Under the pieces are notes generated by a model, which saw only the letters and a program-made list of their open reading frames with translations, was not told the DNA's origin and searched no databases. 64,000 nucleotides of DNA from Vairimorpha necatrix. Taxonomy: Eukaryota. This document shows positions 11,888 to 32,294 of this stretch, piece by piece. Location: assembly GCA_036630325.1 (NCBI GenBank), contig CP142728.1, positions 558,001 through 622,000 of the forward strand, read 5' to 3'. Position 1 is the stretch's first letter, and each line of letters starts with the position of its first letter. Position numbers and translations under genes: made by a program.

Positions 11888-14800
11888 TGTGATATATTTG
11901 TATAATTTCTATCCCCCATTATGATAAATAAAGACATGGGGGCGATACCGAATCGTCAGTTTACAAGTGTGGACTGTGGTCTAGAGGCCAAAAAGTTATT
12001 AAAAGAAGTTAGAAGAATAATGTATAGGTTGGAGATGGAGGAAATAGAAATCAGTTTGTGGAAGCAGAGAATATTTATGGAAGGAAGTGAAGAAATAAAA
12101 AATTTCATGGTAGAAAGAATTAGTAAAGAGGACGAATATTATAAAATAATTGAGAAATTAGAGGAGGAAATATGTAGAGAAGAAAGAACTAAAAAAGAAG
12201 AAGAAAATAAGAGAGAACTTATGGAGGTCATAGCTGAGAATGTTAGAGAAACTGTGAGAAAAGAAAATCAAGAGCAAGATTTAGTTTTAAGGAATACAGT
12301 ACAAGAAATAAGAAATAATAGGAATTGTTTTAATTGTGGTAAATTTGGCCATATGGCTAGGAACTGCTATGTAGGAAGGAACAATAATCAGGAAAATAAT
12401 AAAAAGTTTAATAAGTACTTAAATTTAGACGAAAACCAAAGTTGTAGTAGCAGTAATGATAATAAAGAATATAAACCAAGTGGAAAGACAAAACGAGTTA
12501 AGTTAAAGGAATGTAATAATAGTGAAAGAAGACATAAAGAAAGAATATATGCGAGCAATAAAGAGACGAAAAGAAGATTACTAAAGAGGGCATTTACGTT
12601 GGAAGATCTCAAAGCGGAATATGAAGAAGTTTTTAAACAAGGAGATGAGGTTATAAGTTATTGTACATTAGAGAAGTGTAAGATAGATACTCCAGAGGGT
12701 AAGAAGATAGTCAGAAAGGGACAGACGATCCCACAGGCTTTGATCAAACAGACTGAGGAATATATTAATGATTTAGAAAATAGAAAAATTATAAGAAGAT
12801 CGTCTTCGGAATGGCGAAACCCAATAAGAGCGATACTTAAACCAAGTGGTGAAGTAAGAGTAGTTAGTAATTTTATAGGGTTGAATGATTTAGTCGAGAA
12901 AGACCCGTATGAGCTAACGAATATGAGAGAAATAATAAGAGCTACGCAAGGGTCGATAATATTTACTGTTGTTGATTGCAAAGAAGCATTTTACCATTTT
13001 GAAATCGAAGAAAAAGATAAACATAAGACGGCGTTTGAATTTAATAAAAAAGTTTACGAATGGAATAGTATGGTGATGGGATACAAAAATTCCCCACAGA
13101 TACTACAGAGAACGATGAATATGATTTTTTAAGATTTGCGAGGAAATGGTGTTGAGGTATACATGGACGATATAGTAATACATGCCAACAATAAACGTAA
13201 ACACGATGAATTAGTAATAGAGGTTTTAGAAAGAATTAAGAGAAATAAAATGAAATTAAATATTGGGAAAATACAGTTTAGACAAGCGGAAGTAAAATTA
13301 TTAGGTGTGACGCTGAATGGAATAGACATGACGGCCGACGAAATAAAGAAAAATGAAGTCTTGGAGTATCCGGATCCAAAAACTTTGACGGAATTGAGGA
13401 GGTTTCTAGGATTGACTGGATGGTTCAGACCATTTATAAAAGATTATGCCGGGCTGACGTTGAAAATGACAGATAGTTTGAAGAAAAATGGCAATTCGTG
13501 GAAATTTACGGAAGAGATGAAAGAGGAATTTACTAAAATGAAAAATATGTTAAGAAATATGGGAAGACTAAGGTTACCGGACTATAATAAGGAGTTCATA
13601 CTAAGAACAGACGCTAGCAATTTGAGATTAGGTGCGGTGTTACTTCAGAAGAATGAGAATGGGGAATGGGTTGCTATACAATGGGCATCTAAAAAGCTAA
13701 CACCTACCGAAATAAGATATGGAATATCAGAAAAGGAAATGCTTGCGATATATTGGGGCATTGATAAATTTAAATACGAGTTAAGAGGTAGGAAATTCAA
13801 GATAGAAACGGATCACAAAGCACTGGTGGAGATAAGAAATAAACCGTTTTTTAATAATAACAGAATAAATCGCTTAATTGAGAAGATACAGGAATATGAT
13901 TTTATCGTGGAATATAAAAAACCTGATGAGATGGTGGTAGCAGATGCGTTGAGTCGAATAAATATGGAAGAGGATATTAAAGAAATGAAAAATAAAGAGC
14001 GAACAATCAAGCAAACAGAAGGTAAATGGAAAGCACATGTTTCTTCCGAGAATGAAAGGCAATATTGGCAATTTGACTCAGGACGTAAAGTTGAAATACC
14101 ACCTGAGAATATAAGGAGACAATTAATCCAAGAATATCATGAAAAAGTAGGCCACAGATGCATGACAAGTGTTTATTATGCAACGAGAGAAGAATACTAT
14201 TGGCCAGGAGTAAAGAAAGAAATAAACGAGGTTATAAAACAGTGTCAGAAATGTCAGATATATAACAGGAAAAATATGGGTGGTTGTGAATTTGTAGATA
14301 CGTCGAGATACTTAGAGAAGGTTGCATTAGATTTGATAGACTTTAGAAATGAGAAGAAATATGTTTTAGTTGCTATCGATTATTTTACACGTAGAGTATG
14401 GGGAGTAGTTATAAATAACAAGTCAAGTAATAATGTTGTTGGATTTTTGAAAAGATTATGTGAGCAAGGGAAGAAACCAGAAGAAATTATTACAGATAAC
14501 GGGAAAGAGTTTATTAACGTGGAATTTAGAAAATTTTGTAGAGATCTCGATATAATACACCGACAAGTAAGTATAGAAGCGCATAGAAGTAACGGAAGAG
14601 TAGAGCGTGTTATAGGAACTTTGAGAGAAAGTATTTTAAAGTCGGATGCGAAAACTTTTGAAGGTAAAGTGTATAAAAGTATCGATGTATATAATTAGAG
14701 CTATCATACGGGAATAAAATGTACACCATTAGAAGCGACTGAAGATAAAACTGGAGACGTAATGCTTGAAAATAGCCCTATAGGGAAATATTGTAATAGG

Positions 14801-15105
14801 TTTGGAAAAGGAAAGATCGAAAAATTTAGCAAAGGTCAATTGGTAAGAATAGCTAAACGAGAAAATTTGGCAGGTGTTAATAAGTATGAAAAAGGAAGAT
14901 TTTTGGATACAGGAAAAATTGTTGAAAAGTGTGGAAAGGATTCTTATATTGTAAAACTTAGTAATGGTAGGCTTGTGAAGAAGAGACATTATGATCTGAA
15001 GGGTATGCTTGGGGTAGATGTGAAAATTAGATGAGACTAACCGTCTTGAGGGGGGATGTGATATATTTGTATAATTTCTATCCCCCATTATGATAAATAA
15101 AGACA
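11888..15105 (+). mobile_element. Ty3/gypsy LTR retrotransposon 1 with identical 49-bp LTRs; Gag-Pol carries two in-frame stops
   Basis: Identical TG..CA LTRs at 11888-11936 and 15057-15105, TSD TTTAA, PBS TGGGGGC, PPT GAGGGGGGA. CCHC knuckle, RT YMDD, RNase H TDAS and integrase lie in one frame (11921-15034) with stops at 13130 and 14696. Empty site in the right arm near 49611-49615. Confidence 0.96.
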
Positions 15106-15303
15106 TTTAATATCAATATGGCTTATATTCGGATTAAATTTTTGGTCAGTTAAACGCCGCAGACCACTAATCGCCTCTTGAAATGTTTTTGTTTTGCATT
15201 GCCGCATAAAATTTTTTTTAAATCTTACAATTTTAGAAAATAAAACATACAAAAACTTAAAAATAATTTACATTGATTTTTGAGCTGATCTAAAGTTATT
15301 ATA

Positions 15304-15538
15304 TGTCAAGGGACAGCTCTCCAGTGGTCCTCAGATGGCCCTGGAGACTAGAGAATACTATTAAGTAGATATTCTCCTCCTTTGTATTATTCATGTTTTA
15401 GGCGGGAAAATGTACCAGATTTTCCCGCCCATAAACATAAAAGAAAATCATCCTCAGAAGGGTATGAAGATGAGAAAGATGAATAAACAATTTATTAGTA
15501 AACCTTCTTCACAGCCGTTGGATAAACAACAGTCCACA
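15304..15538. mobile_element. Solo LTR (235 bp) of an unrelated family
   Basis: TGT...ACA termini, 5-bp TSD TTATA (15299-15303, 15539-15543), and absent from the right arm (empty site ~49419-49423). Confidence 0.85.
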
Positions 15539-16041
15539 TTATATATCCAAGAAATAAAACATTAGTTGCAATTGTTATAAAAACTTACAACTCATACTAT
15601 GTAAGCCAATTGTGTCACACTTTAAAAATAAGAAACTTAACTAGTACCGCCTATTGGCAATGTTCTTAGTGTAATAAAACTAAGTGAATGTACTTAATGG
15701 TTACAGACCCATAATCGATTAATATATAATCTTCTTGTGCGCTTAATTTAATTTTTGTACAAATTAAAAAAAAACATTTAAATCTTTGTTTGTTGATTTT
15801 ATTTAACTGAAATATGTTATACTAGACAAAATATTTAAAGCTTTAATTCAATAAGGCAATTTATATATATTAAATTTATTATTTAAAAACAAACTTATAT
15901 AAATTTCTATGATCTATAAGAATTATTAATTGTAACATTTTTTACTCGTTTTTTTTGAATTTATATTTATTTTAACATATATAAATTTAACGTTTTTCAT
16001 TAATGTAAAAAATTATTTTTTATTTTATATTTTTACCCCTA

Positions 16042-16239
16042 ATGGTTTCAATCACAAAAGGTTATTTAGTAAAAACTGAGCCAAGTATTAAAGAAGTCAT
16101 TTGCTCAATTGGAGAAAATGAAAATTTTATTATTGAAAATATTAATGATTTTCTTGTATTTATTACTGAAGATGGAGCTGTTGGTCTTAAATCACGAGTT
16201 GAAGGAATTTTGAATCGTGCGTACAAAGAATTAAAATAA
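16042..16239 (+). CDS. TFB5: TFIIH subunit TFB5/p8 (left copy)
   Basis: 65 aa; KGYLVKTEPSIK...FIIENIND..VFI matches the Tfb5 pattern. CCCC precedes the ATG. Confidence 0.85.
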   Translation: MVSITKGYLVKTEPSIKEVICSIGENENFIIENINDFLVFITEDGAVGLKSRVEGILNRAYKELK

Positions 16240-16269
16240 AATGTTATGTTTTTTTTTATCCCATAAAAA

Positions 16270-17495
16270 ATGAAAGAAAATTTCTATAATAAAAAAAATT
16301 TAAAGTACTTGAATATGATTAGAGGAGATAAACCAATAAGAAATTCAAGAGCTGAAATTATAAAACCAGCAGAATTTCAAAAATCTAAAGCAAAGACTGG
16401 TAGAATTCATCCAGATAGAAAATGGTTTAGAGCCAGTAAAACAGTTTCTCAATTAGATCTTGAAAAATTTAGAGAGGCGTCAAAAATTGAAACACCATAC
16501 AATGTGCTTCTTAAGACTGGTAATGTTCCATATTCACTTCTTGCAGAAAATAAAAAGAAAAAAAATACAGTTGAATATGACAGCATTTTTGGAAAGAAAG
16601 CAATAAGAAAAAAACCAAAGTTGTTAGTAACAAGCTTAGAAGAAATGGCTAAAAGCAAAAATGAAGTAATAGCCGAAAAAAAAGAAATTAAAAAAGATGC
16701 TGTCAAAGGACAAAGTACTGAATTTGGAAAGAGCTATATAAAGTTTTAGATAGCAGTGATGTTATTATTCATGTTTTAGATGCGAGAGATCCACTTGGTA
16801 CAATGTGTGAGAAGATTTCAACATATATAAAAGAAGAAGCCCCACATAAACATTTAATTTACCTACTAAATAAAGTAGATTTGGTTCCGACAGGAGTGAC
16901 TGCCAAATGGCTAAAATATTTTTCCAATAAACACACCACTTTGGCTTATCACGCACAGTCTTTGGAAAATAATTTTGGTAAGACAAATTTAATAAATATT
17001 TTGAGACAGCTTGATAACTTGTATAATAAAAAACATACAAGCGTAGGGTTTGTAGGGTATCCAAATAGTGGGAAAAGTAGTATAATTAATTCACTTAGAA
17101 ATAAACATGTATGTAATGTGGCACCTGTACCTGGCGAGACAAAAGTTTGGCAATACATTACTTTGACCCGTAGCATTTATTTGATAGACTGCCCGGGAGT
17201 CGTCCCAATTCCTGATTTTGAACAGGCTGTTTTTAGGGGGGCTATTCGTATAGAAAATCTTGAGAATCCAGAATATTACGTAGAATTATTAGCAAATAAA
17301 TATAAAACAGAAATATCTAAATTATACAGAATTGAATTTAGAGACATAGAAGATTTATTTCAAAAATTTTCAGTGAAATATGGTAAGATTACAAAAGGTA
17401 ATAGACCTTATGTTGATTTAATTAGTAAGACGATTTTACATGATTGGAATAGAGGAAAAATTTCATATTTTAATTTACCTCCAACTGAAGAATAA
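16270..17495 (+). pseudogene. NOG2: Nucleolar GTPase NOG2, frameshifted left copy
   Basis: 1-nt deletion at ~16720 (AGTACTGAA vs AGTACTAGAA in the right arm), not in a homopolymer. NGP1NT-like N-terminus, NKVD, GYPNSGKS and DCPG motifs are present. Confidence 0.85.
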
Positions 17496-17589
17496 AAAAT
17501 AAATTAAAAACGATATTAATTATTTTTAAATGAATTTTTTTATTTGAGAATGTTTACATTGTTATTATAAATTATTGTTTTTTATACCC

Positions 17590-18144
17590 ATGGGCAACAG
17601 ATCGAGCACTTTAAAAAACTTCGACTTAGACGACTCAAAAAAATTTTCTCATTTTCCTTCAAAAGATGTACAAGAATGGTCAAATGAATTTAGGACAAGA
17701 TTTCCAAATGGAAAAATGACATTGCAAGATTTAGAAATGATGTTTAGAAGATTTTTTCCTTTTGGATCTCCCAAGAAATTTGTATTAAGATTATTCAATA
17801 CAATTAATATAAGTCAATCAGATAATATTGACTTTCATGAACTTTTAATTGCTTTCAGTATTTTAATGAAAGGCAGCAATTTCGAAAAATTGAGATGGAT
17901 TTTCCGGTTTTATGACGAGGATAGTGACGGGGTCATTTCCAAAAACGAGATAGTTAATATTGCACAATCAATGATGGACATGGTTAGTAACACTCTTGAC
18001 GCACATATTGACATAGAAAAGGCTATTGATGAGCTTTTTGAATGTTGTGATAATAAAAGTGGATTTTTTACATTTGAAGATTTTAAAGAATTGGCCGCAA
18101 GAAAAAAAGAAGCTTTTCAGATGCTTACACTTTTTATTGATTAG
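17590..18144 (+). CDS. FRQ1: Frequenin/NCS-1-like EF-hand calcium sensor (left copy)
   Basis: MGNRSS myristoylation motif after CCC-ATG, FFPFGSPKKF, and KLRWIFRFYDEDSDGVISKNE EF-hand. Confidence 0.85.
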   Translation: MGNRSSTLKNFDLDDSKKFSHFPSKDVQEWSNEFRTRFPNGKMTLQDLEMMFRRFFPFGSPKKFVLRLFNTINISQSDNIDFHELLIAFSILMKGSNFEKLRWIFRFYDEDSDGVISKNEIVNIAQSMMDMVSNTLDAHIDIEKAIDELFECCDNKSGFFTFEDFKELAARKKEAFQMLTLFID

Positions 18145-18311
18145 ATTGTAATACAATACAAATTTTTAAAAACCTAACTGTAATTAATAAACAATTTATC
18201 AAATTTTACTAATAATTGTAGTTTAAAAAAATATAAAACATTTCATTTATCAAATATTAAAAAATTGCTTTGTTTTTGTAGACTATAAAAAAATCAAAAT
18301 TGTTATTGTTT

Positions 18312-19283
18312 ATGTCAACAATAGAGAATAATGATATACGCGAAGTTTCGGATTTTATATTTCCCGAATTTAAAGTTCATGATGAAGGAGTAGTAACTCA
18401 ACACTGGCAACTTAAAGATATGCTAAAGATCCATAATGGAAATTTAATATTTCCACAATCAAATAAGGTGTATTCTTATGATCCTAAAACAAGAACAAAA
18501 CTCCTTTTATCGGAAGATTTATCGTTTCCCCCAGCTTCTTTGTGTGTTGAAGAAGATTTTCTTGCAATAGGCGGAGGAAAAGGACAGTTATACGTCAAAA
18601 ATTTAATTAATAACGAAACGAAATATTATTTTTTAAGTGATAATATCAATAACCATATATCAATTCACGACAAAAAAATTTATGCGTCGAATAATGATCG
18701 AAAATTAAGAATTCTATCTGTAGAAAATGATTCAGTACAAACTATTGATTTTATTAGCCAAATAAATCATACAAGTGTGAGTCCTGATGGAAAATATCTT
18801 ATAATGGTAGGAGATTCGAATGATGTATTTTTATACGTAATCGAAAATTCAAATTATAGATTCTTAAAGAAACTGAAGACCATTAATGACAGTGGCTTTA
18901 GTGTTGCTTGGAATAATTTCTCAAATAAGTTTGCTGTTGCGTCGCAAGATGGATTTGTTAGTGTTTGGGATTTGAGATCGGACGAAAAGTCATATATTTT
19001 AAGAAGTAAACAACAAGGAACTCATAAAGGAGCAGTTCGAAATGTCTTCTTCAGTATTAAAAAGTCATTAGATTTGATATTTTTCACTGAACAATCTTCT
19101 TACCTATCAATATTTGATGCTAGAAGTTTCGAAAAACGTCAATTAGTAAATCTAGGAGATGATGTGCAAATAACAGGAGCAACAATCTCAGAAGAAGACT
19201 TTAAAATATTTGTATCTTCTGAACATAAAATTTATGAATATGATATAAACACAATATCAAGAAGAATATTTGATACAAAATAA
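18312..19283 (+). CDS. WD40-repeat protein (DUF2415-type) (left copy)
   Basis: HWQLKD N-terminal motif, SPDGKY, FSVAWN...FAVASQDGFVSVWD, GAVRNVFFS and FFTEQ. Confidence 0.8.
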   Translation: MSTIENNDIREVSDFIFPEFKVHDEGVVTQHWQLKDMLKIHNGNLIFPQSNKVYSYDPKTRTKLLLSEDLSFPPASLCVEEDFLAIGGGKGQLYVKNLINNETKYYFLSDNINNHISIHDKKIYASNNDRKLRILSVENDSVQTIDFISQINHTSVSPDGKYLIMVGDSNDVFLYVIENSNYRFLKKLKTINDSGFSVAWNNFSNKFAVASQDGFVSVWDLRSDEKSYILRSKQQGTHKGAVRNVFFSIKKSLDLIFFTEQSSYLSIFDARSFEKRQLVNLGDDVQITGATISEEDFKIFVSSEHKIYEYDINTISRRIFDTK

Positions 19284-19938
19284 AAAATCGATAAATATTA
19301 TGCCTTTTTAATAAAAACTATACAATTAGTTCGTTAACAAACTCAAAATCTGAAGATGTATTTTTTCTAATAAATTTATAATTTTTGACGACAAATTAAG
19401 TCATCGAATTTTTAATATATGTTAAACACAACTCTTAAATACATGAAAAGCGAATTTGACTAATTTAATTTAACCTTAAAATTTCATAATATTTTTTATA
19501 CGATTAAATCAAGCTCGGGGTTTTTTCAATATTGATAGTCGACAACTATAATACTAAAATCTTACATATGACACATTTTTATCATTGAGAACATATCAAT
19601 TTAAAAATATGACCAACATTCTCACATACAAATGAATAAACTAATTTATATGCGATTTTTTGATATAAATGCTATCTACATTGATTTAATCTGCTTATTT
19701 TTGAAAATAAAATATTTTTATAAATTTTTTACAATTTTAAAACAGATAAGTTTGGGGATTTCACTTTTAAATTGATTATTTACAGGTAAAATATTTTTCA
19801 TATTATTTATTGGTAAAAGGCCTAAATATATTAGTATATGTAAATATATACGATTAAAAAACATCGAAATTTTATACTTCAAGAATATTGTACATATGTA
19901 AAAATGTTTAGTAAAAAAAATTATATAAAATAATTTGA

Positions 19939-20664
19939 TTATTTATTTTTAATTAACCAACAGAAACTCGTTCCACAAGGTCGTTTTCCTATCGATTCGG
20001 GAGTAACTTGTTCTTGAACAGATGGTTTAATTGTCTTAGTATGACTTAGGGAAATATTTGACAGATCGAGTAAATAATGATCATCAGTGTATAAGTTATT
20101 CAATAAAATTAAAAGCTTTTTATATCCCTCGGGATTAAATAATTGGACAATTGTCTTTTCGCAATCTTTATCCAGTTTTACATCTAAACTTTTAATTATT
20201 TGATCATTGATGATATTAATGTTCTTTTTATATATATTGAAAGTTTCTACATTGGATAATTTGAATATCAAATTATAACTATGATAAGCCAAGGATTCCA
20301 AGAAAGATAATGGATGCGAGCATTTGGCATCATATGACTTCCCTGAGCTAAACTCGTTTAAATATTGCTTAAAAACAACAATTAAAAGTCTTAATATCCC
20401 ACTTTTATTAGACTTATCTTTGTTAGATACCAAACTATCGGTCCTTTTCCTTATTTCTAAATTTCCTCTTAAAATCAAGAAAAAATCCTTCACTATCTTA
20501 TGATAATGATCTAGATAAAGTTCTTGGCATACTTTCTCTGGTATATCATCAAAATTTAATTTTTGAATTAAACTAGACGAATAGTAAATTTTTTCATTGG
20601 TCCTGGGTTTTCTGATATTAAAATCAGAACATACGTGTAATATTAAATATAATAAGAAATACAT
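19939..20664 (-). CDS. Putative secreted protein, local family member A (left copy)
   Basis: Signal-peptide-like N-terminus. Shared DHY.K, FKQYL, ESLAYHSY and C...IVQLFN motifs. Confidence 0.75.
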   Translation of the reverse strand: MYFLLYLILHVCSDFNIRKPRTNEKIYYSSSLIQKLNFDDIPEKVCQELYLDHYHKIVKDFFLILRGNLEIRKRTDSLVSNKDKSNKSGILRLLIVVFKQYLNEFSSGKSYDAKCSHPLSFLESLAYHSYNLIFKLSNVETFNIYKKNINIINDQIIKSLDVKLDKDCEKTIVQLFNPEGYKKLLILLNNLYTDDHYLLDLSNISLSHTKTIKPSVQEQVTPESIGKRPCGTSFCWLIKNK

Positions 20665-21740: not shown

Positions 21741-23601
21741 AAAGGGCAAATAATGATTCAATGTTTTTTTGTATGTAAACATAGCTATTAATGATTCCTT
21801 AATTGAAATTTTTTTGTAATTTTTAACTATAGAATTTTTTAATATTTTGATTTGTCTACTGGCAACAGTTTGATATTTTATGTAGTGTCTGGCTTTAAAG
21901 CTTTAATTAAACAAAATATCCAAGTAATCTGTCATTTAACTTAGATAAAATGAATATTTAGAATATGTACCTAGATTTTATAATATTTCATTAATGTTTT
22001 GATAATGTCTTCAACATATTTTATTCATAGTAGATAAGCCGTATGGTTTGTGTTAGTTTTTTATTTTGAATGATCAATGTAGATGTAAAAAACTTATACA
22101 GCCTCTGTGTATTAAGACAAGTCAAGATAATTTTGTACAAAGTGCCGTGGGATGATGTGTTACAATTATCTCATTATTATACAACAAACTAAAGCTAAAT
22201 AGTTGAAACGAAAACAACATAAAGCTCAAAAAATTGATTTTTTTGTAAGTCTTATCTTATAAATTTGCGAAAGGTAGACACGGAAGTAGATGCATAAATA
22301 GAGCTAAATGTTGGAACAAGTTTTTCATAATTGTGAGAAGTAGCTCATAATCTTCATTGATCCATGTATTAACATAATACAGAAACACTTATAGTCAATA
22401 AAATTATTTTGTATGATATTACATAGTCAATTATATAGATAATATTAATATTAATTGTAAAAATTTAAATCTAAATATATTACTTCTCTACGGCTTCAAG
22501 AAGTATCAAAAATTATGTACAATTATGATAAAAAACGAGTAATAATAGATAATTCGTACATTTCATTGTAAGATATTCAGTAAGGATTGGCTAGTAATAA
22601 TATTACATCTTTTGTGGTGTATACTTTTTTAGTTATTTATGTTTAAACCGATTATGAGCTAAAAAACACTAGGATATCAATATAAGACACATATTCTAAC
22701 AATCTGAAAAAAGTTAATAGGAAAAAGAACCCAGAATTAATATTTTAAGATTATTTATCAATAAATAAAAATTTGCCCTTTTTAGAAATCAAATCTTCCT
22801 TCTTCCAATAATCGGCATTATCATGTAAAATATTTACATATATATCCTTAAAACTTCTATCGTAAAAAAATAATATTTACCCTTAAAAATTTATATACTA
22901 AATAAGTCAATATATTATTTTTATCGTATATGAACGAATTTTGATCAATATTAATTTTAAACAAAAGTTTTCATAATGATGCGATTTGAAAAAAAGATCA
23001 TAACTAATAATATATTTTCGTATTTATGAAAACTAAATAAAATTATTATACTTATTTAATATTAACATTTCTTGATAACATAAACATATTTATAAGTTAA
23101 TATAAAAAAGCGGAAAACTTCTTGTGACTAACAATGAATACTACTTGTATAAAAACCAAAAAAAAATTAATATAATTTCGAGACGTAAATGACAATATTT
23201 ATCTAAAACATTAAAACGAGCAAAAGATACAACCGATAAGCATATGCAATGATATTCATAATTCACACTGTTTAGAATATAATAAAAAAATTTAACTCTT
23301 AACTTACAATTATCTTTAACACACGCCTTACAATCCATATTATGAATTTTGATTATGTGTGGAAAGCAAAAATACAAAGAAAAATAACACAAAAAAACAT
23401 TTCAAAAGTAGAATAGAAATAACCATTAGTAGATTTACAATTAAAATTTTTTTTGTGTTCATATATATAACAGTGACTTGAATTGTAATAATTGATCGTA
23501 TGAATCCGATTAAAAAAAAATTATGATTGTTTTAAAAATTTTATGTGCATTGCGTACAATTACGAATAGATTTATATTAAATAATCTTCTACTATATCCT
23601 C

Positions 23602-24400
23602 ATGATTTGCGCTTTATATATTGTCTTTAATAAATGTTATCTAGTATATGATGATCATTTTAAGACCTATGAAGAACACGTTCGTTTGAATGATACTTCT
23701 GATAGTTATCAAAAATTTAATTATGATAATATTTATCAAAAAAAATATCAGGATGTGAATCTAGATCATTTTAATAAAATATCAAGAGATATCTTCTATA
23801 GTATCAATGAACACCCCGTGTTGTGGTCAGAATAATTACAGGAAAACATGAGTTTAATTATTTACTATATTTAAAGATCAATGTTATTTATCAATCACTG
23901 ATTAAGTGATTAATCTTTGATATGTCGTGCTTACAACACCCCGATAAAAAAAATAAAAATGATGATTTACTGGCTAAGAACAACAGAATTAACTCTAATA
24001 TTTTATTCAGTTCTTTTAAACATTACTTAGATGAGTTTATTTCAGGTAAAACATATGATTTAATATGCTTGTATGCTTTGTAATTTATAGAATCTTTGGC
24101 TTATAACAGTTTAAGATAAATTTTGCAACTAGCCAGTACGAAAAAAATTTGACGAATATATAGAAAACAGAGAAAATATAAAAATCCGAGATTTTTAAGT
24201 GTGAAATTATAGACTAAATATTGTGAAAACGAAATTATTCAACCTTTTAATGCAGAAAAATTAACAGGATTTATATATTGTTAAGCGATGTAAATCTTAG
24301 TGAAAAAACTTAATGATAGAAGATACGCGCCCATCCGTACGACAACAACAGCCAAGCCGTTTGTACTAAATGATTTTAAATAGTTTCATTGGAAAGAACA
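23602..24400 (+). pseudogene. Degenerate paralog of the secreted family, interrupted by a solo LTR
   Basis: NLDHFNKISRDIFYSINEHP before the insertion. After it come FKHYLDEFISGKTYD, ESLAYNS and RRYAPIRTTTTAKPFV, with stops and frameshifts. Confidence 0.8.
23819..23938. mobile_element. Solo LTR (120 bp)
   Basis: TGTTGT...ACAACA inverted termini and 5-bp TSD CCCCG (23814-23818, 23939-23943). Confidence 0.85.
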
Positions 24401-24929
24401 GTTGAGGTGATTTGTAGATTAAGTAGTGCATGATACAACAAAATGTTTGCTTATAAAATAGTTTGTTTTTTAGGTTTTATATAAAAGTGTTAATTTTTTA
24501 TCGAAGATGTATTTATGTGAAATAAAATGCGAATATAAATTTAGTGCTTCGTAGTATACGAATTATCGTAAAATACTACTCCAACAGCCTTATGCATTTA
24601 TTTTCCTCATCTGTTTCTATAGGACTTTTTATAATATGTTTACTATCATAGAGAAAATATATATAATTTTTTTTCGACATTATTTTTTGAATGGCCATAT
24701 TTTTCAGAACCTCATTGATAACTTCAACAGACTAAATGAATCATTGCGTCAAAAACAGTACAGAAACTATTTTAATCTATAACGTTTATTCTAATTTGAC
24801 TAAAATTAATATTGCTTTCTCATCTTACTCTTTTGTTTAAAATCTCATTGAAAAAAAGAATTATAAAAAGGAGACCAAAACTAGGACAAAAAATTTTATT
24901 CGTGCAACTCTATCATTATGTAAAATATA

Positions 24930-27900
24930 TGTATTTATTTTCCATAATGGGGTTCAAAAATATAAGAATATATAACATCACCCCTAAGACGGTTAGTCTC
25001 CTACGTCATCATCAACCCTAAGCAGATCTTTTAAGTCATAGTGTCTCTTCTTAACTAATCGTCCATTCATAATTTAACTACATAAGAATCCCCTGGACAC
25101 ACAATCCTAATCATCCCAATATCCAAAAACCTACCTTTTTCATACTTATTAGACCCCTTTAAATTTTTACTCTTAGCAACTTGCACTCTCTGTCCTTCGA
25201 CGAACTTGTCTCTATATCTCTTTTTAAATCGACTACTATAATCTCCTTCTGGTCCATTTCTTAGCATTACATTGCCGTATTATCTTTAACTGCCTCAAAC
25301 GGTGTGCATCTTAGACCTTCATGGTAACTATTATTATAAATCTCAAAGGCCTTCATAACTCTTTCTTCAAAGCTATTTTTGGGATTCATTTTTAAAACAG
25401 ATTCTCTCAACGTACCAATAACTCTTTCAACTTCCCTATTGCTTTTATGTGATTCAATACTGGTCTTTCTGTGAGTTATATCCAACTTTCTGCATAACTC
25501 TCGAAATTCCTCATTTTCAAATTCTTTCCCATTGTCCATATGATTTCTTCTGGTCTTTTACCATTCTACAAAAATTTTCTATAAATCCAGTTATCGAGGT
25601 AGCTTGCTTATCTTTCAACACTCAACCTCATGCGACTCTCGTATAGTAATCAATAACCACTAAAACGAATTTCCTGAAATCTCCATAATCGATTAAATCT
25701 ATTGCCTCCTTTTCTAGGTATCTACTTGTCGCAATAAAATCGCATCCTCCTGATTTTTTCCTATTGTATTTTTGGCATTTTCACATATTTTTATCATCAT
25801 CTTTATATCTTCTTTAATTCCTGGCCAATAATACTCAAACTTTATAGCATAATAGACACTTCCTAGTCCTCTGTGGGCCTGTTCTTCATGGTACCTTTTC
25901 ATTAACTCTAACCTATCACCTACTGCAGGTATTTCTGCTCTACGGCCCGAATCAAAAATCCAGTACTCCTTGTCCCCGACTTTCTCAATGTGCTTATACC
26001 ATTTTCCCGTCATCTGTTTCACTGTTCTTTGTCTAATTATTTCTCTCTTAGGTTCATTTTCCTCATGAATTCTGCTCAATGCATCAGCAACAACCATCTG
26101 ATCGGGTTGCCTGTACTCAATTTCAAAATCAAACTCTTGGATCATCTCTATCCACCTGTTAATCCTATTATTATTAAAACATGGCTTTCTTCGTATTTCT
26201 GCTAAAGCCTTATGATCAGTTTCAACCTTAAACTTTCTTCCTCTTAATTAATACTCAAACTTCTTTATGCCCCAATATACGGCATACATCTCTTTCTCGC
26301 TAATTCCGTATCTAGTTTCCGTCGGAGTAAATTTCTTTGATGCCCATTGTACCGGCACCCATTCCTCTTTTTCATTTTTCTGCATAAGTACAGCTCCCAT
26401 ACCAATATTACTCGCATCCGTTCTTAATAAAAATTCTTTTTCGTAATTAACAATCCTCAATTTCCCTAAATTCTTAAGCACTTTTTTCATATTCTCAAAT
26501 TCAATATCCAACTCCTCAGTCCAATTCCAACTTTTGTTTTTCCCTCTTAAGCAATCTGTCATGTGTATCGTTTTCTCTGCGTAGTTCTTTATAAATTCTC
26601 TAAACCAACCACTTAATCCTAAAAATCTTCTTACGTCGGTTACATTTTGCTGCTTTGGAAATTCTAATGCTTCTTTTTTTATCTCGGATGGCATCATATC
26701 CTGCCATTCAATACTACTCCTAATAATTTAACTTCTGATTGACGATACTGTATCTTCTTCGAGTTTAATCTCAGGTTATTCTCTTCTAACAGTCTCATTG
26801 CCTCTAAAAACAATTTGTCGTGTTCTTCTCTAGTCTTGGCATGTATCACAATATCATCCATGTAAACTTCTATTCCTCTTCCCAAATACTTCTCAAAAAT
26901 CTTATTCATAATCCTTTGCATGATCTGTGGCGAATTTTTAAACCCCATGACCATGCTGTTAAACTCGTATACTTTCTTATCAAACTCAAACGCGGTCTTA
27001 TGCTTATCCGCTTCTTCTATCTCAACCTTATAAAAGGCTTCTTTAAGGTCAATAACACTCATAATCTTCGAGCCTTGCGTGAACCTAATAATATCCCTGA
27101 TGTTACACAACTCATATGGATCCTTCTCTACTAAATCGTTCAGGGCCATAATATTACTGACCAAACGTATGATCCCATCCGACTTAACTATAGCCTTTAT
27201 CGGATTCCGCCATTCAGAGGTTGGTCTTTTAATTACATTTATTTTCTCTAAATCCTCTAAGTGCTTCATTAATTCGTTTTTATGCGCTTAAGGAATCATC
27301 TGTCCCTTCCTAACGACTTTTTTCCCTGCTTCTGTCTGAATTTACATTTCTCTATTTTACAATACTTAATTTTTCCCTTATTTTCATCAATCACGTTTTT
27401 AAATTTCTTCTTAACATCTTCTAAGTCGGCCTCTTGAATGTTGTCGTCTCATAACTTCCCTTCTTAATATCTTTTATTTCCCCAGTTCGTTTCCATAGTG
27501 AAACGGGCCTAACTTCTATCTGTTTCTTTTGCCTTTTACCAGCCCACGTATTCCTGTAATATTTTCCATCGCTGCTGCTACTGTCCTCTCGATATATCTT
27601 CTCGCATTCTTGTTTATTTCTCTCCTCTCTGTATCTATTATAACATCTATTACCTTTATGTCCTAACCTTTCACAATAAAAACATCCCATTGTTCTCAAA
27701 TAACGTTTCCTACGCTCTATCTCCTCTGTATATGTTTCTTTTGTCAACTTCTTTGTGACCTCTTCAATCATTCTAAATCTCTCTTTTACATCTTCATAAT
27801 CTTTAACAATCTCTTTTAATCGTATTCCTATCATGTCATGGTGATCCTCTAAACTTATTCTCATAACCATAAAAATTTTTCAGCTCCAAACTTCCTTTTT

Positions 27901-28091
27901 CAAAAATAATTTTCTTCAAATCTTCATCGCTTCTACACTCAATAACTTTGATCTCATACATAATAATCTTATATTCTTGCAATAGTTTTCTGGCCTCTTG
28001 ACCACAGCCAACACTTGTTAACTCACGATTTGGTATCGCCCCATGTATTTATTCTCCATAATGGGGTTCAAAAATATAAGAATATATAACA
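24930..28091 (-). mobile_element. Ty3/gypsy LTR retrotransposon 2 (degenerate) with 48-bp LTRs
   Basis: LTRs at 28044-28091 and 24930-24977 with one mismatch. Imperfect TSD ATATA/AGATA. Fragmented Gag (CFYCERLGHKGNRC), RT (YMDD), RNase H and integrase ORFs. Confidence 0.93.
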
Positions 28092-29110
28092 AGATATTAT
28101 GATAGTGATAATCCAATTTTAACTTCAACCAAGCTTTCTGTTTTAAATTATAAGCATTTATTATGCCTATAAGATTTGTACCTTATTTCATAAGTTTGAC
28201 TATTTTAGAGCTAATATAATTAAATTTATACGATAAAACAAACAAAACTTATCAAATATTGGGGCTATGAGGGAAATTACACTCCAAAGCGTTTCAACCT
28301 CCCCCCCCCCCACTTCTTTAAAATTACAAAACGCACGAATTTTTACTTTTTATATATTTTTTTTTCTAGGGGGGGGCGATTTCCCAAGCTATGGTCCCTT
28401 CCCCTTTTCTTTCCCATTTTTCTTACCCTTCATGCTAGCAAGGATATTAAAATAGGTGGGTGAACTTAGTCTTTAAAATCCCTTGTTCCAAGATAACGAT
28501 CTCGCAATTACGCTTTTGGTAGAATTAGATGTTGTGGTGTTACCACCAGGGAGGAGGCCTGTTTGTAGGTAGCATTCGATGATGCTCCTTCCTGCAATAG
28601 ATATAGTATATTTTTATTTAAATTGTGTTTATTGTATTTCCCCGATGGGCTAGTTTAGTTCCTCGTGTGAGGAGGTAAGGTATGAGAGACCTTCCCGACG
28701 TCACTGTATCTGTCTTTGTTTCCAGTTCTTCTCATCTTCCAAAAATAGGGGTAAAGTAAAAAGAAAATATTTATAGCAAAATATTTTCTAGAAAATTCAT
28801 TTGAGGGAAATAAATAAAAATAAAATAATGTGGTAAATAATACCACAGATGTAAAAAAATTCTACCATTTCACGTGTCTCAAAGTCATGCCTAGGAAACA
28901 TGTCTATTGCTAGAGTTTCTTTCTTTATTGATGGGAAAGGGTATAGATGTACCGTAAACGATTGCACAAGCAAACGTAATTTGAAAAAGCACAAAAATTT
29001 TAAAATGATTATCGAATTAAAAAGATCCCGAGGTGTTAATATTGGTGGGCCTTATCTTACTCTAATTTTCAAGCTCTCAATTTTTGCAAAATAGCCGAGT
29101 CCACATTTTA

Positions 29111-32100
29111 TGTTATATATCCTTATTATTTTTACCCCTCATTATGGAAAATAAACACATGGGGGCGATACCAGAAAATGGGTCTACAAAGGAGGACCGT
29201 GGCCAAGAGGCTAGAATATTATTAAAAGAGGTTAAAAGGATTGTTTATGAGTTGTTTTTAGAGGAAATTGATGAGTGTGGATTTAAATTAGAAATTTTTA
29301 GGAGAGGTTCTATTTTATTGAGAAATTTTATTGTTGAGAGGATCTCGCAAGAGGGTAGTTGGAAGGAAATTGAGGAAAAATTAGAGTTGCTAGCTATTCA
29401 GGAGGAAAAGGAACAAGTGAGAAAAAAAGAATTTGAAGAGTTGTCCCTAGCGTTATGGGCTAAATTTGAGGAGAAGAATAAGTTGTCTCGTGAGGAAAAT
29501 AAAAAGAATATGCGTTGCTACAATTGTGGGAAGTTAGGCCATAGTGTTAGATTTTGTAGGGGAATGAGGCGAGATTCTGAAGACAGAAGAAATAAAAGTA
29601 GTTTTAATTATGTTGGTAAATGTAAAGTGCAATTAGACTTAGAGGGTAAATGTGATGACGATTCCAATTCGGACAAATGTGATTATTATAATGTTGATGG
29701 TGGGAAACGTAAGAAGAAAAATTTAGGGGATATACAAGATTATAGCAAAAGGGACAATAATAAGAGAGTTCTGTTGAGAAGGGATGTAAGAGGCATCGCG
29801 TATTTAGAGGAGATTATTTCACGGGTAGGAGGAAGAGAGGATGAAGATATTAGTTTTTGTAAGGTTGAAAAATGTATTATCAAGACTCAAGAAGGCAAGA
29901 AAGTTGTTAAAAAAGGGCAGGCTATAGCTCAGGCTTTGTTGAAGAAGACGGAAGATTATATTAATAGTTTGGAAAGAAGAAAGATAATTAGAAGGTCGAC
30001 ATCTGACTGGAGAAATCCCATTAGAGCGATTGAGAAACCGAATGGTGATATAAGATTAGTAAGTAATTTAATTGCTCTTAATGACATTGTAGAGAAGGAT
30101 CCTTATGAGTTAACTAGGATAAGAGATGTTATTAGAAGTACACAGGGATCTGAATTTTTTACCGTGATAGATCTAAAGGAGGGTTTTTATAGTATTGAGA
30201 TTGAAGAGAAGGATAGGTTTAAGACGGCTTTTGAGTTTAATAAAAAGGTATACGAGTGGAATTCGATGGTCATGGGGTTTAAAAACTCACCGCAGATATT
30301 ACAAAGAATAATGAATGGGATTTTTGAAAAATTTATTGGTAAGGGAATCGAAATTTATATGGATGATATTGTGATTCATAGTAAGACAAGAGAGGGTCAC
30401 GACAAATTGTTGAAAGAGGCTGTGGATATATTAGAGGAGAATAGTATGAAAATTAATTTGGCTAAGGTTCAATTATGTAAACGAGAGGTGATGTTGTTAG
30501 GAGTAACAGTTAATGGCAAGGAGATACTGCCATCTGAAATAAAGCAAAATGAAGCGTTAGAATTTACCAAACCGGAGTGTGTATCAGATGTTAGGAAGTT
30601 TCTTGGGCTGGCTGGATGGTTTAGAAATCATATTGATAATTATGCAAAACGTACATTGGCGTTGACGGATTCTCTTAAAGGACGAGGAAGTAATTGGAAA
30701 TGGACAGAAGAAATGGAAAAAGAATATATTAGTTTAAGGGAAGTGATTAGGGATTTAAAAGGTTTAGCAATTGTTAATTATAATAAGGAATTTTTGTTAC
30801 GCACGGATGCGAGTAATGTTGGAATGGGTGCTGTTTTAATGCAGGAAGATGATCAAGGTAATTGGGTACCAGTACAGTGGGCATCAAAAAAGTTTACGCC
30901 TACGGAAACGAGATATGGAATCAGTGAGAAGGAGATGTATGCAGTCTTTTGGGGAATTAAAAAGTTTGAATATGAACTACGCGGAAGAAGATTTAGGGTA
31001 GAAACTGATCATAAGGCATTGATCGAGATTAGAAATAAACCAGCATTTAACAATAATAGAATTAACAGGTGGATTAAAAAGATTCAAGAGTTCGACTTTA
31101 GCATTGAATATAGAGAGCCTAGTACCATGGTTGTAGCAGATGCACTGAGTAGGGTACATGAAAATGAGAAAACGCTAATGAATAAGGAGAGAAGTATTAA
31201 ACAGGCACAGGGTAAATGGGACAAGCATGTTAAAGTTGTTGATGGGAAGGAAATTTGGGTATTTGACTCTGGTAGAGAAGCGGAGATTCCAAAGAAAGAA
31301 TTGCGTGAAGGTTTAATTGTCAATGCTCATGAAAATTTGGGACATAGAAGTTTAGGATCAGTGTACTATGCAATGAAGTTTGAATTTTATTGGCCGGGTA
31401 TGAAGAAGGATATCGAGGATGTTTTAAAGAAGTGTGAAGTTTGCCAAATATATAATAGGAAAAAGAGTGGTGGTTGTGATTTTGTTAGTTCAAGATTTTA
31501 TTTGGAAAAGGTTGCTTTGGATTTGATTGAGTTTAGAGATTTAGGGAAATATGTGTTGGTCGTGATTGATTATTATACTAGGATCGTTTGGGGAAAAGTA
31601 ATAGAGGACAAACGCGGAAGCTCGGTTGTAGGATTTTTAAAACAGTTGTGTGGATCAGGAATGAAACCGGTAGAAATAATTACTGACAACGGTAAAGAAT
31701 TTAGTAATGAATATATGAGGAATTGGTGTTCAGAGGAAAATGTATTACATAGGAAAGTAAGCGTAGAAAGTCATAGAAGTAATGGAAGAGTGGAAAGGGC
31801 AATAGGAACCATAAGAGAAGGAATATTGAAAGATGATGCTGTGGATTTTGAAGCCAAGGTTAATAGATGTATATGGCGTTATAATAACAGCTATCATGAA
31901 GGGTTGAGATGTACACCGTTTGAGGCCTCAAGAGACGAAACGGGCCATGTTATGATCGAGAATGGACCTGAAGGATTTTATAGTAGGAGGTTTGTGGCTC
32001 GCAAAAGAGAGAAATTCTATAAAGGTCAGAGAGTTAGGGCAGCGAAGAAAGAGAACTTATCGGGTTGTAGTAAGTATGAGAAAGGAAGGTTTTTAGGATA

Positions 32101-32294
32101 TGGTGTTATCAAGGAAGTTTGCGGAGGTGACTCGTACTTAGTTAGTTTGGAAAATGGTAGGATCGTGAAAAAGCGGCATTATGATTTAAAAGGTCTGCTT
32201 GGGATTAATGAGTTCTAGTATGAGACTACCGTCTTGGAGGGGGGATGTTATATATCCTTATTATTTTTACCCCTCATTATGGAAAATAAACACA
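29111..32294 (+). mobile_element. Ty3/gypsy LTR retrotransposon 3, apparently intact, with identical 49-bp LTRs
   Basis: Identical LTRs at 29111-29159 and 32246-32294, TSD TTTTA, PBS TGGGGGCGATACC, and a purine tract immediately before the 3' LTR. Confidence 0.97.
29144..32218 (+). CDS. Single-ORF Gag-Pol (mini-Gag with CCHC, RT, RNase H, integrase; no evident protease)
   Basis: Uninterrupted 1024-codon frame from the LTR-internal ATG: CYNCGKLGHSVRFC, IDLKEGF, YMDD, TDAS...SEKE...TDHKAL, H-x4-H...CEVC, and LDL...TDNGKEF...NGRVER. Confidence 0.93.
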   Translation: MENKHMGAIPENGSTKEDRGQEARILLKEVKRIVYELFLEEIDECGFKLEIFRRGSILLRNFIVERISQEGSWKEIEEKLELLAIQEEKEQVRKKEFEELSLALWAKFEEKNKLSREENKKNMRCYNCGKLGHSVRFCRGMRRDSEDRRNKSSFNYVGKCKVQLDLEGKCDDDSNSDKCDYYNVDGGKRKKKNLGDIQDYSKRDNNKRVLLRRDVRGIAYLEEIISRVGGREDEDISFCKVEKCIIKTQEGKKVVKKGQAIAQALLKKTEDYINSLERRKIIRRSTSDWRNPIRAIEKPNGDIRLVSNLIALNDIVEKDPYELTRIRDVIRSTQGSEFFTVIDLKEGFYSIEIEEKDRFKTAFEFNKKVYEWNSMVMGFKNSPQILQRIMNGIFEKFIGKGIEIYMDDIVIHSKTREGHDKLLKEAVDILEENSMKINLAKVQLCKREVMLLGVTVNGKEILPSEIKQNEALEFTKPECVSDVRKFLGLAGWFRNHIDNYAKRTLALTDSLKGRGSNWKWTEEMEKEYISLREVIRDLKGLAIVNYNKEFLLRTDASNVGMGAVLMQEDDQGNWVPVQWASKKFTPTETRYGISEKEMYAVFWGIKKFEYELRGRRFRVETDHKALIEIRNKPAFNNNRINRWIKKIQEFDFSIEYREPSTMVVADALSRVHENEKTLMNKERSIKQAQGKWDKHVKVVDGKEIWVFDSGREAEIPKKELREGLIVNAHENLGHRSLGSVYYAMKFEFYWPGMKKDIEDVLKKCEVCQIYNRKKSGGCDFVSSRFYLEKVALDLIEFRDLGKYVLVVIDYYTRIVWGKVIEDKRGSSVVGFLKQLCGSGMKPVEIITDNGKEFSNEYMRNWCSEENVLHRKVSVESHRSNGRVERAIGTIREGILKDDAVDFEAKVNRCIWRYNNSYHEGLRCTPFEASRDETGHVMIENGPEGFYSRRFVARKREKFYKGQRVRAAKKENLSGCSKYEKGRFLGYGVIKEVCGGDSYLVSLENGRIVKKRHYDLKGLLGINEF

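What the first reader, a model, noticed from the sequence alone, without database searches (positions are those of the whole stretch)
11888..32294. Minimal Ty3/gypsy family with 48-49-bp LTRs containing promoter-like motif, start codon and polyA signal
Three divergent elements (11888-15105, 24930-28091, 29111-32294) all have TG..CA LTRs of only 48-49 bp, delimited by 5-bp TSDs, a PBS and a PPT. Element 1 is further confirmed by an empty site. Each LTR has the same layout: TGT-ATATAT AT-rich tract, CCCC motif (as seen before host start codons here), ATT-ATG in frame with Gag, AATAAA, then ACA. LTRs are normally hundreds of bp, so default LTR finders with a ~100-bp minimum would miss these. Identical LTR pairs and one intact ORF suggest a recently active lineage that uses the host's ultra-compact promoter grammar. 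I cannot verify whether it has been described.
Basis: partly seen in the sequence, partly recalled or inferred. Interest (0 to 1): 0.88.

Follow-up and report, generated by a model that had tools for sequence, protein, structure and literature searches.

The report
Tiny gypsy retrotransposons with 49-base LTRs
Three copies of a very small (3.2 kb) jumping gene of a microsporidian parasite really do have end repeats of only 48-49 bases that look like one of the host's own mini-promoters and already hold the start of the protein; this extreme design is real, but one such element was already listed, without comment, in a 2014 catalogue.

Summary
Three diverged copies (73-74% alike) of one Ty3/gypsy-type family lie at the stated coordinates. 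Each has 48-49-bp TG..CA direct repeats, a TGG-starting primer site directly after the 5' repeat and a G-rich polypurine tract directly before the 3' repeat. Target duplications are 5 bp: exact in E1 and E3, 4 of 5 in E2. E1 has an empty site in the window's other, inverted arm. Contigs from four public runs leave the E3 sequence at or within 4 bases of its repeat ends into other flanks. E3 has an intact 1024-aa frame starting inside the repeat; E1 has two premature stops; E2 is badly decayed.

The polyprotein has a short Gag-like part with a zinc knuckle, then RT, RNase H and integrase. No protease was found by Pfam, alignment or fold.

The repeat copies the host gene layout seen in this window: AT-rich tract, CCC(C), ATG within a few bases, AATAAA. 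Promoter use is inferred; no run on record as RNA was listed.

It is not wholly new. Parisot et al. 2014 (Supplementary Table S1) list Anncaliia algerae 'retro L' with a 50-bp LTR, ORF from base 32 and 3127 bp, without comment. This scan has also noted the family several times elsewhere in this genome.

The parts
11888..15105 (+). Element E1, 3218 bp, complete ends, frame closed by two premature stops
   Evidence: frame 11921-15034 with stops at 13130-13132 and 14696-14698, no frameshift; Pfam RVT_1, RNase H, Integrase_H2C2, rve, zf-CCHC
11888..11936 (+). E1 5' LTR, 49 bp
   Evidence: identical to 15057-15105
15057..15105 (+). E1 3' LTR, 49 bp
11883..11887 (+). E1 target-site duplication TTTAA (second copy 15106-15110)
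11937..11949 (+). E1 primer-binding site TGGGGGCGATACC, inside the reading frame
15048..15056 (+). E1 polypurine tract GAGGGGGGA
49611..49615 (-). Empty site of E1 in the other arm of the inverted duplication: single TTTAA
24930..28091 (-). Element E2, 3162 bp, decayed copy
   Evidence: many stops and frame changes; longest ATG-to-stop ORF 191 aa
28044..28091 (-). E2 5' LTR, 48 bp
   Evidence: 1 difference from 24930-24977
24930..24977 (-). E2 3' LTR, 48 bp
28032..28043 (-). E2 primer-binding site TGGGGCGATACC (one G fewer than in E1 and E3)
29111..32294 (+). Element E3, 3184 bp, intact
29111..29159 (+). E3 5' LTR, 49 bp: TATATAT 29114-29120, CCCC 29135-29138, ATG 29144-29146, AATAAA 29150-29155
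32246..32294 (+). E3 3' LTR, 49 bp
   Evidence: identical to the 5' LTR; contigs of runs X15, X16 and X17 leave the stretch at 32294-32298 into other flanks
29106..29110 (+). E3 target-site duplication TTTTA (second copy 32295-32299)
29160..29172 (+). E3 primer-binding site TGGGGGCGATACC, inside the reading frame
29144..32218 (+). E3 polyprotein ORF, 1024 aa: helical Gag-like part plus CCHC (to about residue 140), disordered linker, RT 296-456, RNase H 520-650, integrase 717-870; no protease
32236..32245 (+). E3 polypurine tract GGAGGGGGGA, preceded by the conserved block GAGACTACCGTCTT

Best explanation
These are three copies of a microsporidian Ty3/gypsy-lineage LTR retrotransposon shrunk to about 3.2 kb. 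One is intact, one is nearly so and one is dead.

Shown:
- The LTR really is 48-49 bp.
- The single reading frame starts at LTR base 34, runs through the LTR/PBS junction and the PBS, and ends 27 bases before the 3' LTR.
- The protein has a short helical Gag-like part with one CCHC knuckle, then RT, RNase H and integrase.
- It has no aspartic protease.

Inferred working:
- The first ~30 bases of the LTR act as U3. They hold a TATA-like tract and, about 20 bases further on, a CCC(C) motif, which is the host's own core-promoter layout.
- Transcription would start within a few bases of the ATG, as in microsporidian genes with 5' UTRs under 7 nt.
- The last ~17-20 bases (ATT-ATG...AATAAA..ACA) would act as R.
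- AATAAA lies only 4-5 bases from the LTR end. Cleavage would therefore fall at or just beyond the end, leaving practically no U5.
- A host tRNA, not identified, would prime on the TGG-starting 13-nt PBS.
- The short minus-strand stop DNA would jump by the ~20-nt R.
- The G-rich PPT would prime the plus strand.
- The outer bases of the same 49 bp also serve as integrase ends.
- How the polyprotein works without its own protease is open. It may act unprocessed, or be cut by a host or another element's protease.
For: Ends and mobility:
- Exact repeat limits, TSDs, PBS and PPT are in place.
- E1 has an empty site.
- In four runs of four studies, contigs leave the E3 sequence at the 5' LTR start (X1, about 29107-29110) or the 3' LTR end (X15, X16, X17, 32294-32298) into unrelated flanks.
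- Two runs give contigs of exactly 3165 nt. That equals the 3135-nt LTR-to-LTR period plus 30, as expected (my inference) when a 31-letter-word assembly graph closes a loop over a repeat longer than its word.

Protein:
- Pfam finds RVT_1, RT_RNaseH, Integrase_H2C2 and rve in gypsy order.
- The best solved relative by sequence is Ty3 Gag-Pol, 7q5b, E 1.3e-54.
- Among the 120 listed hits, 0 of the 43 closest relatives carry a precomputed protease family.
- In 23 aligned members the CCHC-to-RT linker is 57-134 aa and has D[ST]G in 1 of 23.
- In the fold model, residues 141-215 are disordered (pLDDT under 50), residues 182-190 form only two 3-residue strands, and a single helix (207-226) follows. 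There is no beta domain.

Family-wide design:
- 20 of 23 members have Met-Ala or Met-Gly at the aligned column that in E1 and E3 is the LTR-A|TG-G junction. 14 of these also have an earlier Met 2-6 residues upstream.
- 6 of 23 read on through the PPT as ..GGDV...
- A. algerae retro L has a 50-bp LTR and ORF from base 32.

Host grammar:
- 9 of 15 distinct host ORFs of at least 200 aa in the window have CCC within about 15 bases before the ATG.
- Several have an AATAAA-like word at or within a few bases after the stop.
- PMC2803860 reports 5' UTRs under 7 nt, a CCC-like motif just upstream of starts, and AAUAAA near stops in E. cuniculi (passages read).
Against: - No transcript ends were seen. 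No listed run is on record as RNA, and all runs were contigs, so the U3/R split is inference.
- The primer tRNA was not found. There is no tRNA gene in the window by ARAGORN and no Rfam match at all. No genome is held. A search of two contaminated MAGs gave only the element itself.
- AATAAA after the ATG is not family-wide. A. algerae retro L has it before the CCC, and many relatives' N-termini cannot encode it.
- Only one of the three copies is intact.
- The R lengths known to work in retroviruses (about 15-20 nt) are recalled, not checked here.
- Absence of a protease fold rests on a model in which that stretch is simply unstructured.
Confidence: 0.8

Rival explanations
1. The short repeats are remnants or a mis-delimited part of ordinary LTRs of hundreds of bp. 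The copies would then be deletion derivatives.
For: Most A. algerae gypsy consensus elements have LTRs of 100-270 bp.
Against: - Similarity between the two ends stops exactly at 48-49 bp, with the PBS and PPT abutting.
- TSDs flank these limits, and the empty site closes on them.
- Three copies only 73-74% alike share the same limits.
- Contigs from other runs leave the E3 sequence at or within 4 bases of its LTR ends.
- A. algerae retro L has 50 bp.
- The LTR-to-LTR period minus the ORF leaves only 60 nt in E3.
Confidence: 0.03
2. The element primes itself, as Tf1 of fission yeast does. The C-run of the LTR (the 5' end of the RNA) would fold back on the G-run of the PBS, with no tRNA involved.
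For: CCCCCA / TGGGGG in E1, CCCCA / TGGGG in E2 and CCCCTCA / TGGGGG in E3: the run lengths go together in three copies. Other LTR families of this genome were noted by the scan to lack a tRNA-type PBS (unchecked here).
Against: - Pairing is only 5-6 bp and does not extend into the rest of the conserved 13-nt PBS.
- The C-run is explained by the host promoter motif.
- E2 is a decayed copy, so its shorter G-run may be a slip.
- The relatives L008 and A. algerae retro L have TGG-starting PBS with no complement in their LTR.
- All PBS start with TGG right after CA, the mark of a tRNA CCA end.
Confidence: 0.07
3. The family is not autonomous. Lacking a protease and most of Gag, it would depend on larger gypsy elements of the same genome for capsid and processing.
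For: - No protease was found.
- Gag is only about 140 aa.
- The same phylum holds 3.6-4.3-kb gypsy elements.
- A relic of another integrase lies in the window.
Against: - The protease-less design keeps long open frames of about 1000 aa in 23 aligned members. These are only 41-60% identical to E3, apart from one 98% copy. Named sources span at least three genera.
- This speaks for selection on the whole protein, including the Gag-like part with its invariant CCHC.
- RT, RNase H and integrase are complete.
Confidence: 0.15

Closest known systems
Anncaliia algerae 'Aalg retro L' (Parisot et al. [quoted passage not shown]
   Same: LTR of 50 bp, ORF from base 32 (inside the LTR) and total length 3127 bp. 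The LTR begins TGTTATATAT, has CCC directly before ATG, ends ACA, and is followed by TGG.
   Different: Its PBS has another sequence (TGGCG...). Its AATAAA-like word lies before the CCC, not after the ATG. Its relation at protein level was not computed here, because the sequence is from a paper and was not handed to tools. The passages returned for my search terms in the paper's main text do not discuss the short LTR or a missing protease.
Microsporidia-specific Ty3/gypsy groups with one polyprotein ORF (Parisot et al. 2014, main-text passages). The Nbr elements of Nosema bombycis (Xu et al. 2006) are recalled only; that paper was not seen.
   Same: A single gag-pol frame in microsporidian hosts. 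Named relatives come from Nosema granulosis (80% identity), Vairimorpha necatrix (57%) and Enteropsectra breve (48%).
   Different: Most catalogued members are 3.6-4.3 kb with LTRs of 100-270 bp.
Ty3 of Saccharomyces cerevisiae (Metaviridae; PDB 7q5b, 4ol8)
   Same: RT-RNase H is the best solved sequence match (E 1.3e-54). The order RT-RNase H-integrase, the 5-bp TSD and the TG..CA LTRs agree. Ty3's TSD length is recalled.
   Different: Ty3 Gag-Pol has 1547 aa, with 615 residues before the aligned RT stretch against 272 here. From recall: Ty3 has a protease, two frames and LTRs of about 340 bp.
Tf1 / Tf2 of Schizosaccharomyces pombe (self-priming; recalled)
   Same: A single gag-pol frame. The public annotation of one relative reads 'Transposon Tf2-9 polyprotein'.
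   Different: Tf1 has a protease and primes itself with its first 11 bases. Here the complement is only a 5-6-bp C/G run.

Membership tests
Ty3/gypsy (Metaviridae) LTR retrotransposons | Direct terminal repeats TG..CA flanked by a short target duplication | tested here: met
   48-49-bp pairs; TSD exact in E1 and E3, 4 of 5 in E2; empty site
Ty3/gypsy (Metaviridae) LTR retrotransposons | pol order RT - RNase H - integrase, with RT nearest to gypsy-type RTs | tested here: met
   Pfam positions 296-456, 520-650 and 717-870; best solved match Ty3
Ty3/gypsy (Metaviridae) LTR retrotransposons | PBS next to the 5' LTR and PPT next to the 3' LTR | tested here: met
   TGG-starting 12-13-nt block conserved in 3 of 3 copies; G-rich tract before each 3' LTR. 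The primer tRNA itself was not found.
Ty3/gypsy (Metaviridae) LTR retrotransposons | Aspartic protease (D[ST]G) between Gag and RT. This is usual in the group, but the group is defined by RT kinship and domain order rather than by it. | tested here: not met
   No Pfam protease in E3 or in the 43 closest relatives. D[ST]G in the linker of 1 of 23. The linker is disordered in the model.
Ty3/gypsy (Metaviridae) LTR retrotransposons | Gag with a capsid fold and a CCHC knuckle | tested here: inconclusive
   CCHC is invariant in 23 of 23. Its Pfam score is above the cut-off in E1 (24.0) and below it in E3 (17.8). The N-terminal model (pLDDT 87) best matches the Arc C-lobe at Z 6.2. Arc CTD scores 5.6 and 5.4, and RSV CA-CTD 5.4 and 5.3. 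All are under 8, among many unrelated helical hits.
'Aalg retro L' type (about 50-bp LTR, ORF starting in the LTR, about 3.1 kb) | LTR of about 50 bp with the ATG near base 32 and a total of about 3.1 kb | tested here: met
   49 bp, ATG at base 34, 3184 bp, against 50 bp, base 32 and 3127 bp
'Aalg retro L' type (about 50-bp LTR, ORF starting in the LTR, about 3.1 kb) | Protein-level kinship with retro L | not tested
   The consensus is only in a paper's supplement and was compared by eye over its first bases.
Tf1-type self-priming elements | The first bases of the transcript are complementary to the whole PBS (about 11 nt) | tested here: not met
   Only a 5-6-bp C-run/G-run pairing. None in L008 or retro L.
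Non-autonomous LTR elements (TRIM / LARD) | No coding capacity for RT and integrase | tested here: not met
   E3 has an intact 1024-aa frame with RT, RNase H and integrase.

The most novel reading that the evidence does not exclude
This is a whole lineage of autonomous LTR retrotransposons, spread across microsporidia. It has compressed promoter, transcription start, start codon, poly(A) signal, R and both integrase ends into 38-50 bp, and it has dispensed with its own protease. That would make it the smallest self-sufficient LTR retroelement design. It would be possible only because microsporidian genes need about 30 bp of promoter and almost no 5' UTR. Finders with a 100-bp floor would miss it, so LTR-element content of microsporidian genomes would be underestimated.
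Probability: 0.45. Interest if true: 0.7.

Novelty: new variant of a known kind. Interest (0 to 1): 0.55.

Why it matters
It shows how little sequence an LTR retrotransposon may need. About 49 bp do the work that normally takes hundreds, and the polyprotein has no protease.

If the inferred U3/R split is right, strand transfer would work with an R of about 20 nt. The element would borrow the host's miniature promoter grammar wholesale. Each LTR, including the 3' one and any solo copy, would then be a portable promoter-plus-ATG unit that could drive or disturb neighbouring genes.

Practically, LTR finders with a 100-bp minimum (a default I recall and did not check here) would not report such elements. 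Public annotations name relatives merely 'endonuclease' or 'reverse transcriptase'. Pieces of them also sit in bacterial MAGs as contamination.

The weight is limited in two ways. One member is already tabulated in print, and this scan has met the family repeatedly in the same genome.

Tried and rejected
- Whole genome: none is held. No genome-wide copy count, solo-LTR census or tRNA search was possible.
- tRNA primer: ARAGORN found 0 tRNA genes in the window and Rfam gave 0 matches of any kind. I searched two contaminated MAGs for the complement of the PBS of relative L008. The two exact hits were one copy of the element and one stretch that reads like a bacterial coding region, and 4 of the 8 returned loci scanned with ARAGORN held no tRNA. 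The primer stays unidentified.
- RNA evidence: no RNA holder was listed. Three runs guessed as RNA were laid, but all are contigs. Their ends (29141 in X17, 29163 in X15) do not coincide, and X17 runs on past the 3' LTR into a flank. Nothing can be said on transcript ends.
- Public DNA of relatives: metagenome, genome and viral scans gave only 2, 3 and 0 family loci, each cut at one end. No relative could be checked for both LTRs. The candidate LTRs of 38 nt (L006) and 47 nt (L008) are guesses from one end.
- Cycle reading for relatives: for eight relatives (for example P0029: 1001 aa on 3035 nt) I subtracted 30 and the ORF length from the contig length. This leaves -1 to 70 nt, as in E3.
- Solo LTRs: blastn-short of the three LTRs found no seventh LTR in the window; the best other hit was 15-16 nt.
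- Self-priming: rejected as the main reading (see rivals).
- Literature: searches for 'short LTR' with microsporidia, 'LTRs as short as', the Nbr elements, Nosema with PBS, 'shortest LTR' and short-LTR phrases found no paper that describes this design. Xu et al. 2006 is not in the library, and Repbase could not be consulted.
- LTR-finder default: I looked for the minimum LTR length in PMC6913007 and did not find it.
- N-terminal fold: capsid-type matches are all under Z 8, so this is a hint only.
Full report
**What is there**

| Element | Coordinates | Length | LTR | LTR differences | TSD |
|---|---|---|---|---|---|
| E1 | 11888-15105 (+) | 3218 bp | 49 bp | 0 | TTTAA / TTTAA |
| E2 | 24930-28091 (-) | 3162 bp | 48 bp | 1 | TATCT / TATAT (4 of 5) |
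| E3 | 29111-32294 (+) | 3184 bp | 49 bp | 0 | TTTTA / TTTTA |

All LTRs begin TGT and end ACA. The repeat finder reports the same pairs and nothing longer.

In alignments of the two ends, similarity stops exactly at the LTR limits:
- On the inner side of the 5' LTR stands TGGGGGCGATACC (TGGGGCGATACC in E2).
- On the inner side of the 3' LTR stands a G-rich tract (GAGGGGGGA, AGGGGTGA, GGAGGGGGGA).
- That tract is preceded by a conserved block, GAGACTA(A)CCGTCTT.

The three copies are only 73-74% identical overall, yet 35 of the 49 LTR positions are invariant. The short LTR is therefore a stable property of the family and not an accident of one copy.

**Independent checks of the ends**

The window is a large inverted duplication. 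Positions 724-22078 match 59864-42876 at 96.9-99.2% identity.

E1 sits in one arm only. In the other arm the two flanks are joined, with a single TTTAA at 49611-49615. About ten bases right after it differ between the arms.

For E3, contigs of four public runs from four studies were laid on the stretch:
- They leave the sequence at about 29107-29110 (X1) or at 32294-32298 (X15, X16, X17), and then go on into flanks unlike the window. The same element therefore sits at other places elsewhere.
- X1 and X16 each give a contig of exactly 3165 nt.
- The LTR-to-LTR period is 3135 nt. My inference is that 3135 + 30 is what a 31-letter-word assembly graph prints when a repeat longer than its word closes a loop.
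- This does not by itself show circular DNA.
- In all, 20 listed runs from 13 studies hold part of the stretch, and 3 hold half of its words or more.

**The protein**

E3 has an open frame of 1024 aa, 29144-32218.

Pfam finds RVT_1 (296-456), two RNase H models (520-650), Integrase_H2C2 (717-772) and rve (792-870). It also finds a zinc knuckle below cut-off. The knuckle scores above cut-off in E1, and its C-C-H-C is invariant in 23 of 23 aligned relatives.

The best solved relative by sequence is Ty3 Gag-Pol (7q5b, E 1.3e-54). Residues 273-671 here match 616-1009 there. This protein therefore has 272 residues where Ty3 has 615.

No protease was found:
- No Pfam hit in E3.
- No precomputed protease family in the 43 closest relatives (P0002-P0044), whereas some of the more distant hits in the same list carry such families.
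- The stretch between the knuckle and the first conserved RT-side block is 57-134 aa long, poorly aligned, and has D[ST]G in 1 of 23 sequences.
- In the AlphaFold model made with this alignment (mean pLDDT 77), residues 141-215 are disordered (pLDDT under 50). Residues 182-190 form only two 3-residue strands, and a single helix (207-226) follows before RT.

The first 140 residues were modelled alone (pLDDT 87). They form three short helices, one 50-residue helix and the knuckle. A fold search placed the Arc C-lobe first (Z 6.2, rmsd 2.6, 64 aligned). Two more Arc CTD entries and two RSV capsid CTD entries were among the top 30. All values are under 8 and lie among many unrelated helical proteins. 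This is a hint at a single capsid-type lobe, no more.

State of the other copies:
- E1 keeps the whole frame but has premature stops at 13130 and 14696.
- E2 is split into at least eight tblastn pieces.

**The LTR as a gene start and gene end**

In E3 the LTR reads:
- TGT, then TATATAT at bases 4-10
- CCCC at bases 25-28
- ATT-ATG at bases 31-36
- AATAAA at bases 40-45
- ACA at bases 47-49

The ATG is in frame with Gag in E1 and E3. In E2 a G-run shorter by one base breaks the frame.

A second ATG is formed by the last A of the LTR and the TG of the PBS, so the PBS itself is translated (M-G-A-I-P).

Host ORFs of at least 200 aa in the same window show the same grammar. CCC lies within about 15 bases before the ATG in 9 of 15 distinct ORFs. 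Several have AATAAA-like words at or within a few bases after the stop.

Peyretaillade et al. 2009 (PMC2803860; abstract and passages read) report for Encephalitozoon cuniculi:
- 5' UTRs under 7 nt
- a CCC-like motif directly upstream of the start
- AAUAAA near stop codons
- poly(A) sites 16-17 nt after the stop for two genes

From this I infer the following. None of it is shown.
- Transcription starts between the CCCC and the ATG.
- R is therefore the last 17-20 bases of the LTR.
- Cleavage falls at or a few bases beyond the LTR end, so there is hardly any U5.

An R of this size is within what I recall for retroviruses (about 15-20 nt in the shortest).

**Family-wide design**

The database search found 43 close relatives at 36-98% identity. 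Named ones come from Nosema granulosis, Vairimorpha necatrix and Enteropsectra breve.

Among 23 aligned members of about 1000 aa:
- 20 have Met-Ala or Met-Gly at the column of the LTR/PBS junction.
- 14 of these have an earlier Met 2-6 residues upstream.
- Two more have Met-Val.
- One has none.
- Six end in ..GGDV.., the reading of the PPT and the first LTR bases.

This fits a frame that begins in the 5' LTR and ends at or in the 3' LTR across the family.

Many relatives lie on assembly contigs of 3.0-3.2 kb. I could not fetch that DNA, so the reading of these contigs as loops is untested.

Public DNA gave only one-ended relatives:
- L006 has the conserved block, a PPT, and then a candidate LTR of 38 nt.
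- L008 has a candidate 47-nt LTR followed by TGGCAACACC....

**What is known**

Parisot et al. 2014 (PMC4202319) list in Supplementary Table S1 'Aalg retro L' with LTR 50 bp, ORF 32-3049 and total 3127 bp. They also list 'retro S' with a 45-bp LTR. Most of their elements have 100-270 bp.

The first lines of the retro L consensus show TGTTATATAT..., CCC-ATG...ACA and then TGGCG. This is the same layout, with another PBS and with the AATAAA-like word before the CCC.

The main-text passages I read note the single polyprotein but say nothing on LTR length or protease. My searches found no paper that describes the design. Xu et al. 2006 and Repbase were out of reach.

This scan has noted the same family at least seven times on other pieces of this genome. 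One note already cites retro L. I reached retro L and the missing protease independently, before reading those notes.

**Verdict**

The structural interpretation is supported, and the functional map of the LTR is a coherent inference that still needs RNA ends.

The three copies are new members of a design that exists in a catalogue but has not been described. I rate it a new variant of a known kind, of moderate interest.

Noticed in passing
window 724-22078 versus 59864-42876: The window is a large inverted duplication: three blocks at 96.9%, 97.9% and 99.2% identity around a unique centre of about 22-43 kb that holds E2 and E3. It could be a real palindromic chromosome region, or two diverged copies joined head to head in assembly.
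   Followed up: partly
window 37917-38738 (-): A 274-aa open frame matches the Pfam MULE transposase domain (E 1.3e-08). It looks like a relic of a Mutator-like DNA transposon. A 68-nt direct repeat (37587-37654 and 39386-39453, 96% identity) lies around it.
   Followed up: partly
window 39562-39744 (-): Weak tblastn match to the integrase part of the E3 protein (31% over 61 aa, E 2e-04). Probably a fragment of another LTR element.
   Followed up: no
window 15030-15056, 24978-25005 (-), 32222-32245; L006 about 2697-2724: A block GAGACTA(A)CC(C)GTCT directly before the PPT is conserved between copies that are otherwise about 74% alike, and in a 50%-identical relative. AGAC and GTCT can pair around a loop whose length varies. 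Some distant relatives translate it as ..GETPS...
   Followed up: partly
window 3391-3609 and 56992-57161: Tandem 27- and 33-nt repeats (six copies in each arm) inside a host reading frame, mirrored in the two arms of the duplication.
   Followed up: no
L006, L007, L008 (contigs in MAGs labelled Clostridium sp. and Turicibacter sp.): Contigs of 3.0-6.0 kb in bacterial MAGs encode 40-50%-identical relatives of this microsporidian retrotransposon. They are most likely eukaryotic contamination of the bins.
   Followed up: partly
window 15111-15121 versus 49600-49610: The ten or so bases right after E1's target duplication differ between the filled and the empty arm, although the arms are about 96-98% alike around them.
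   Followed up: no
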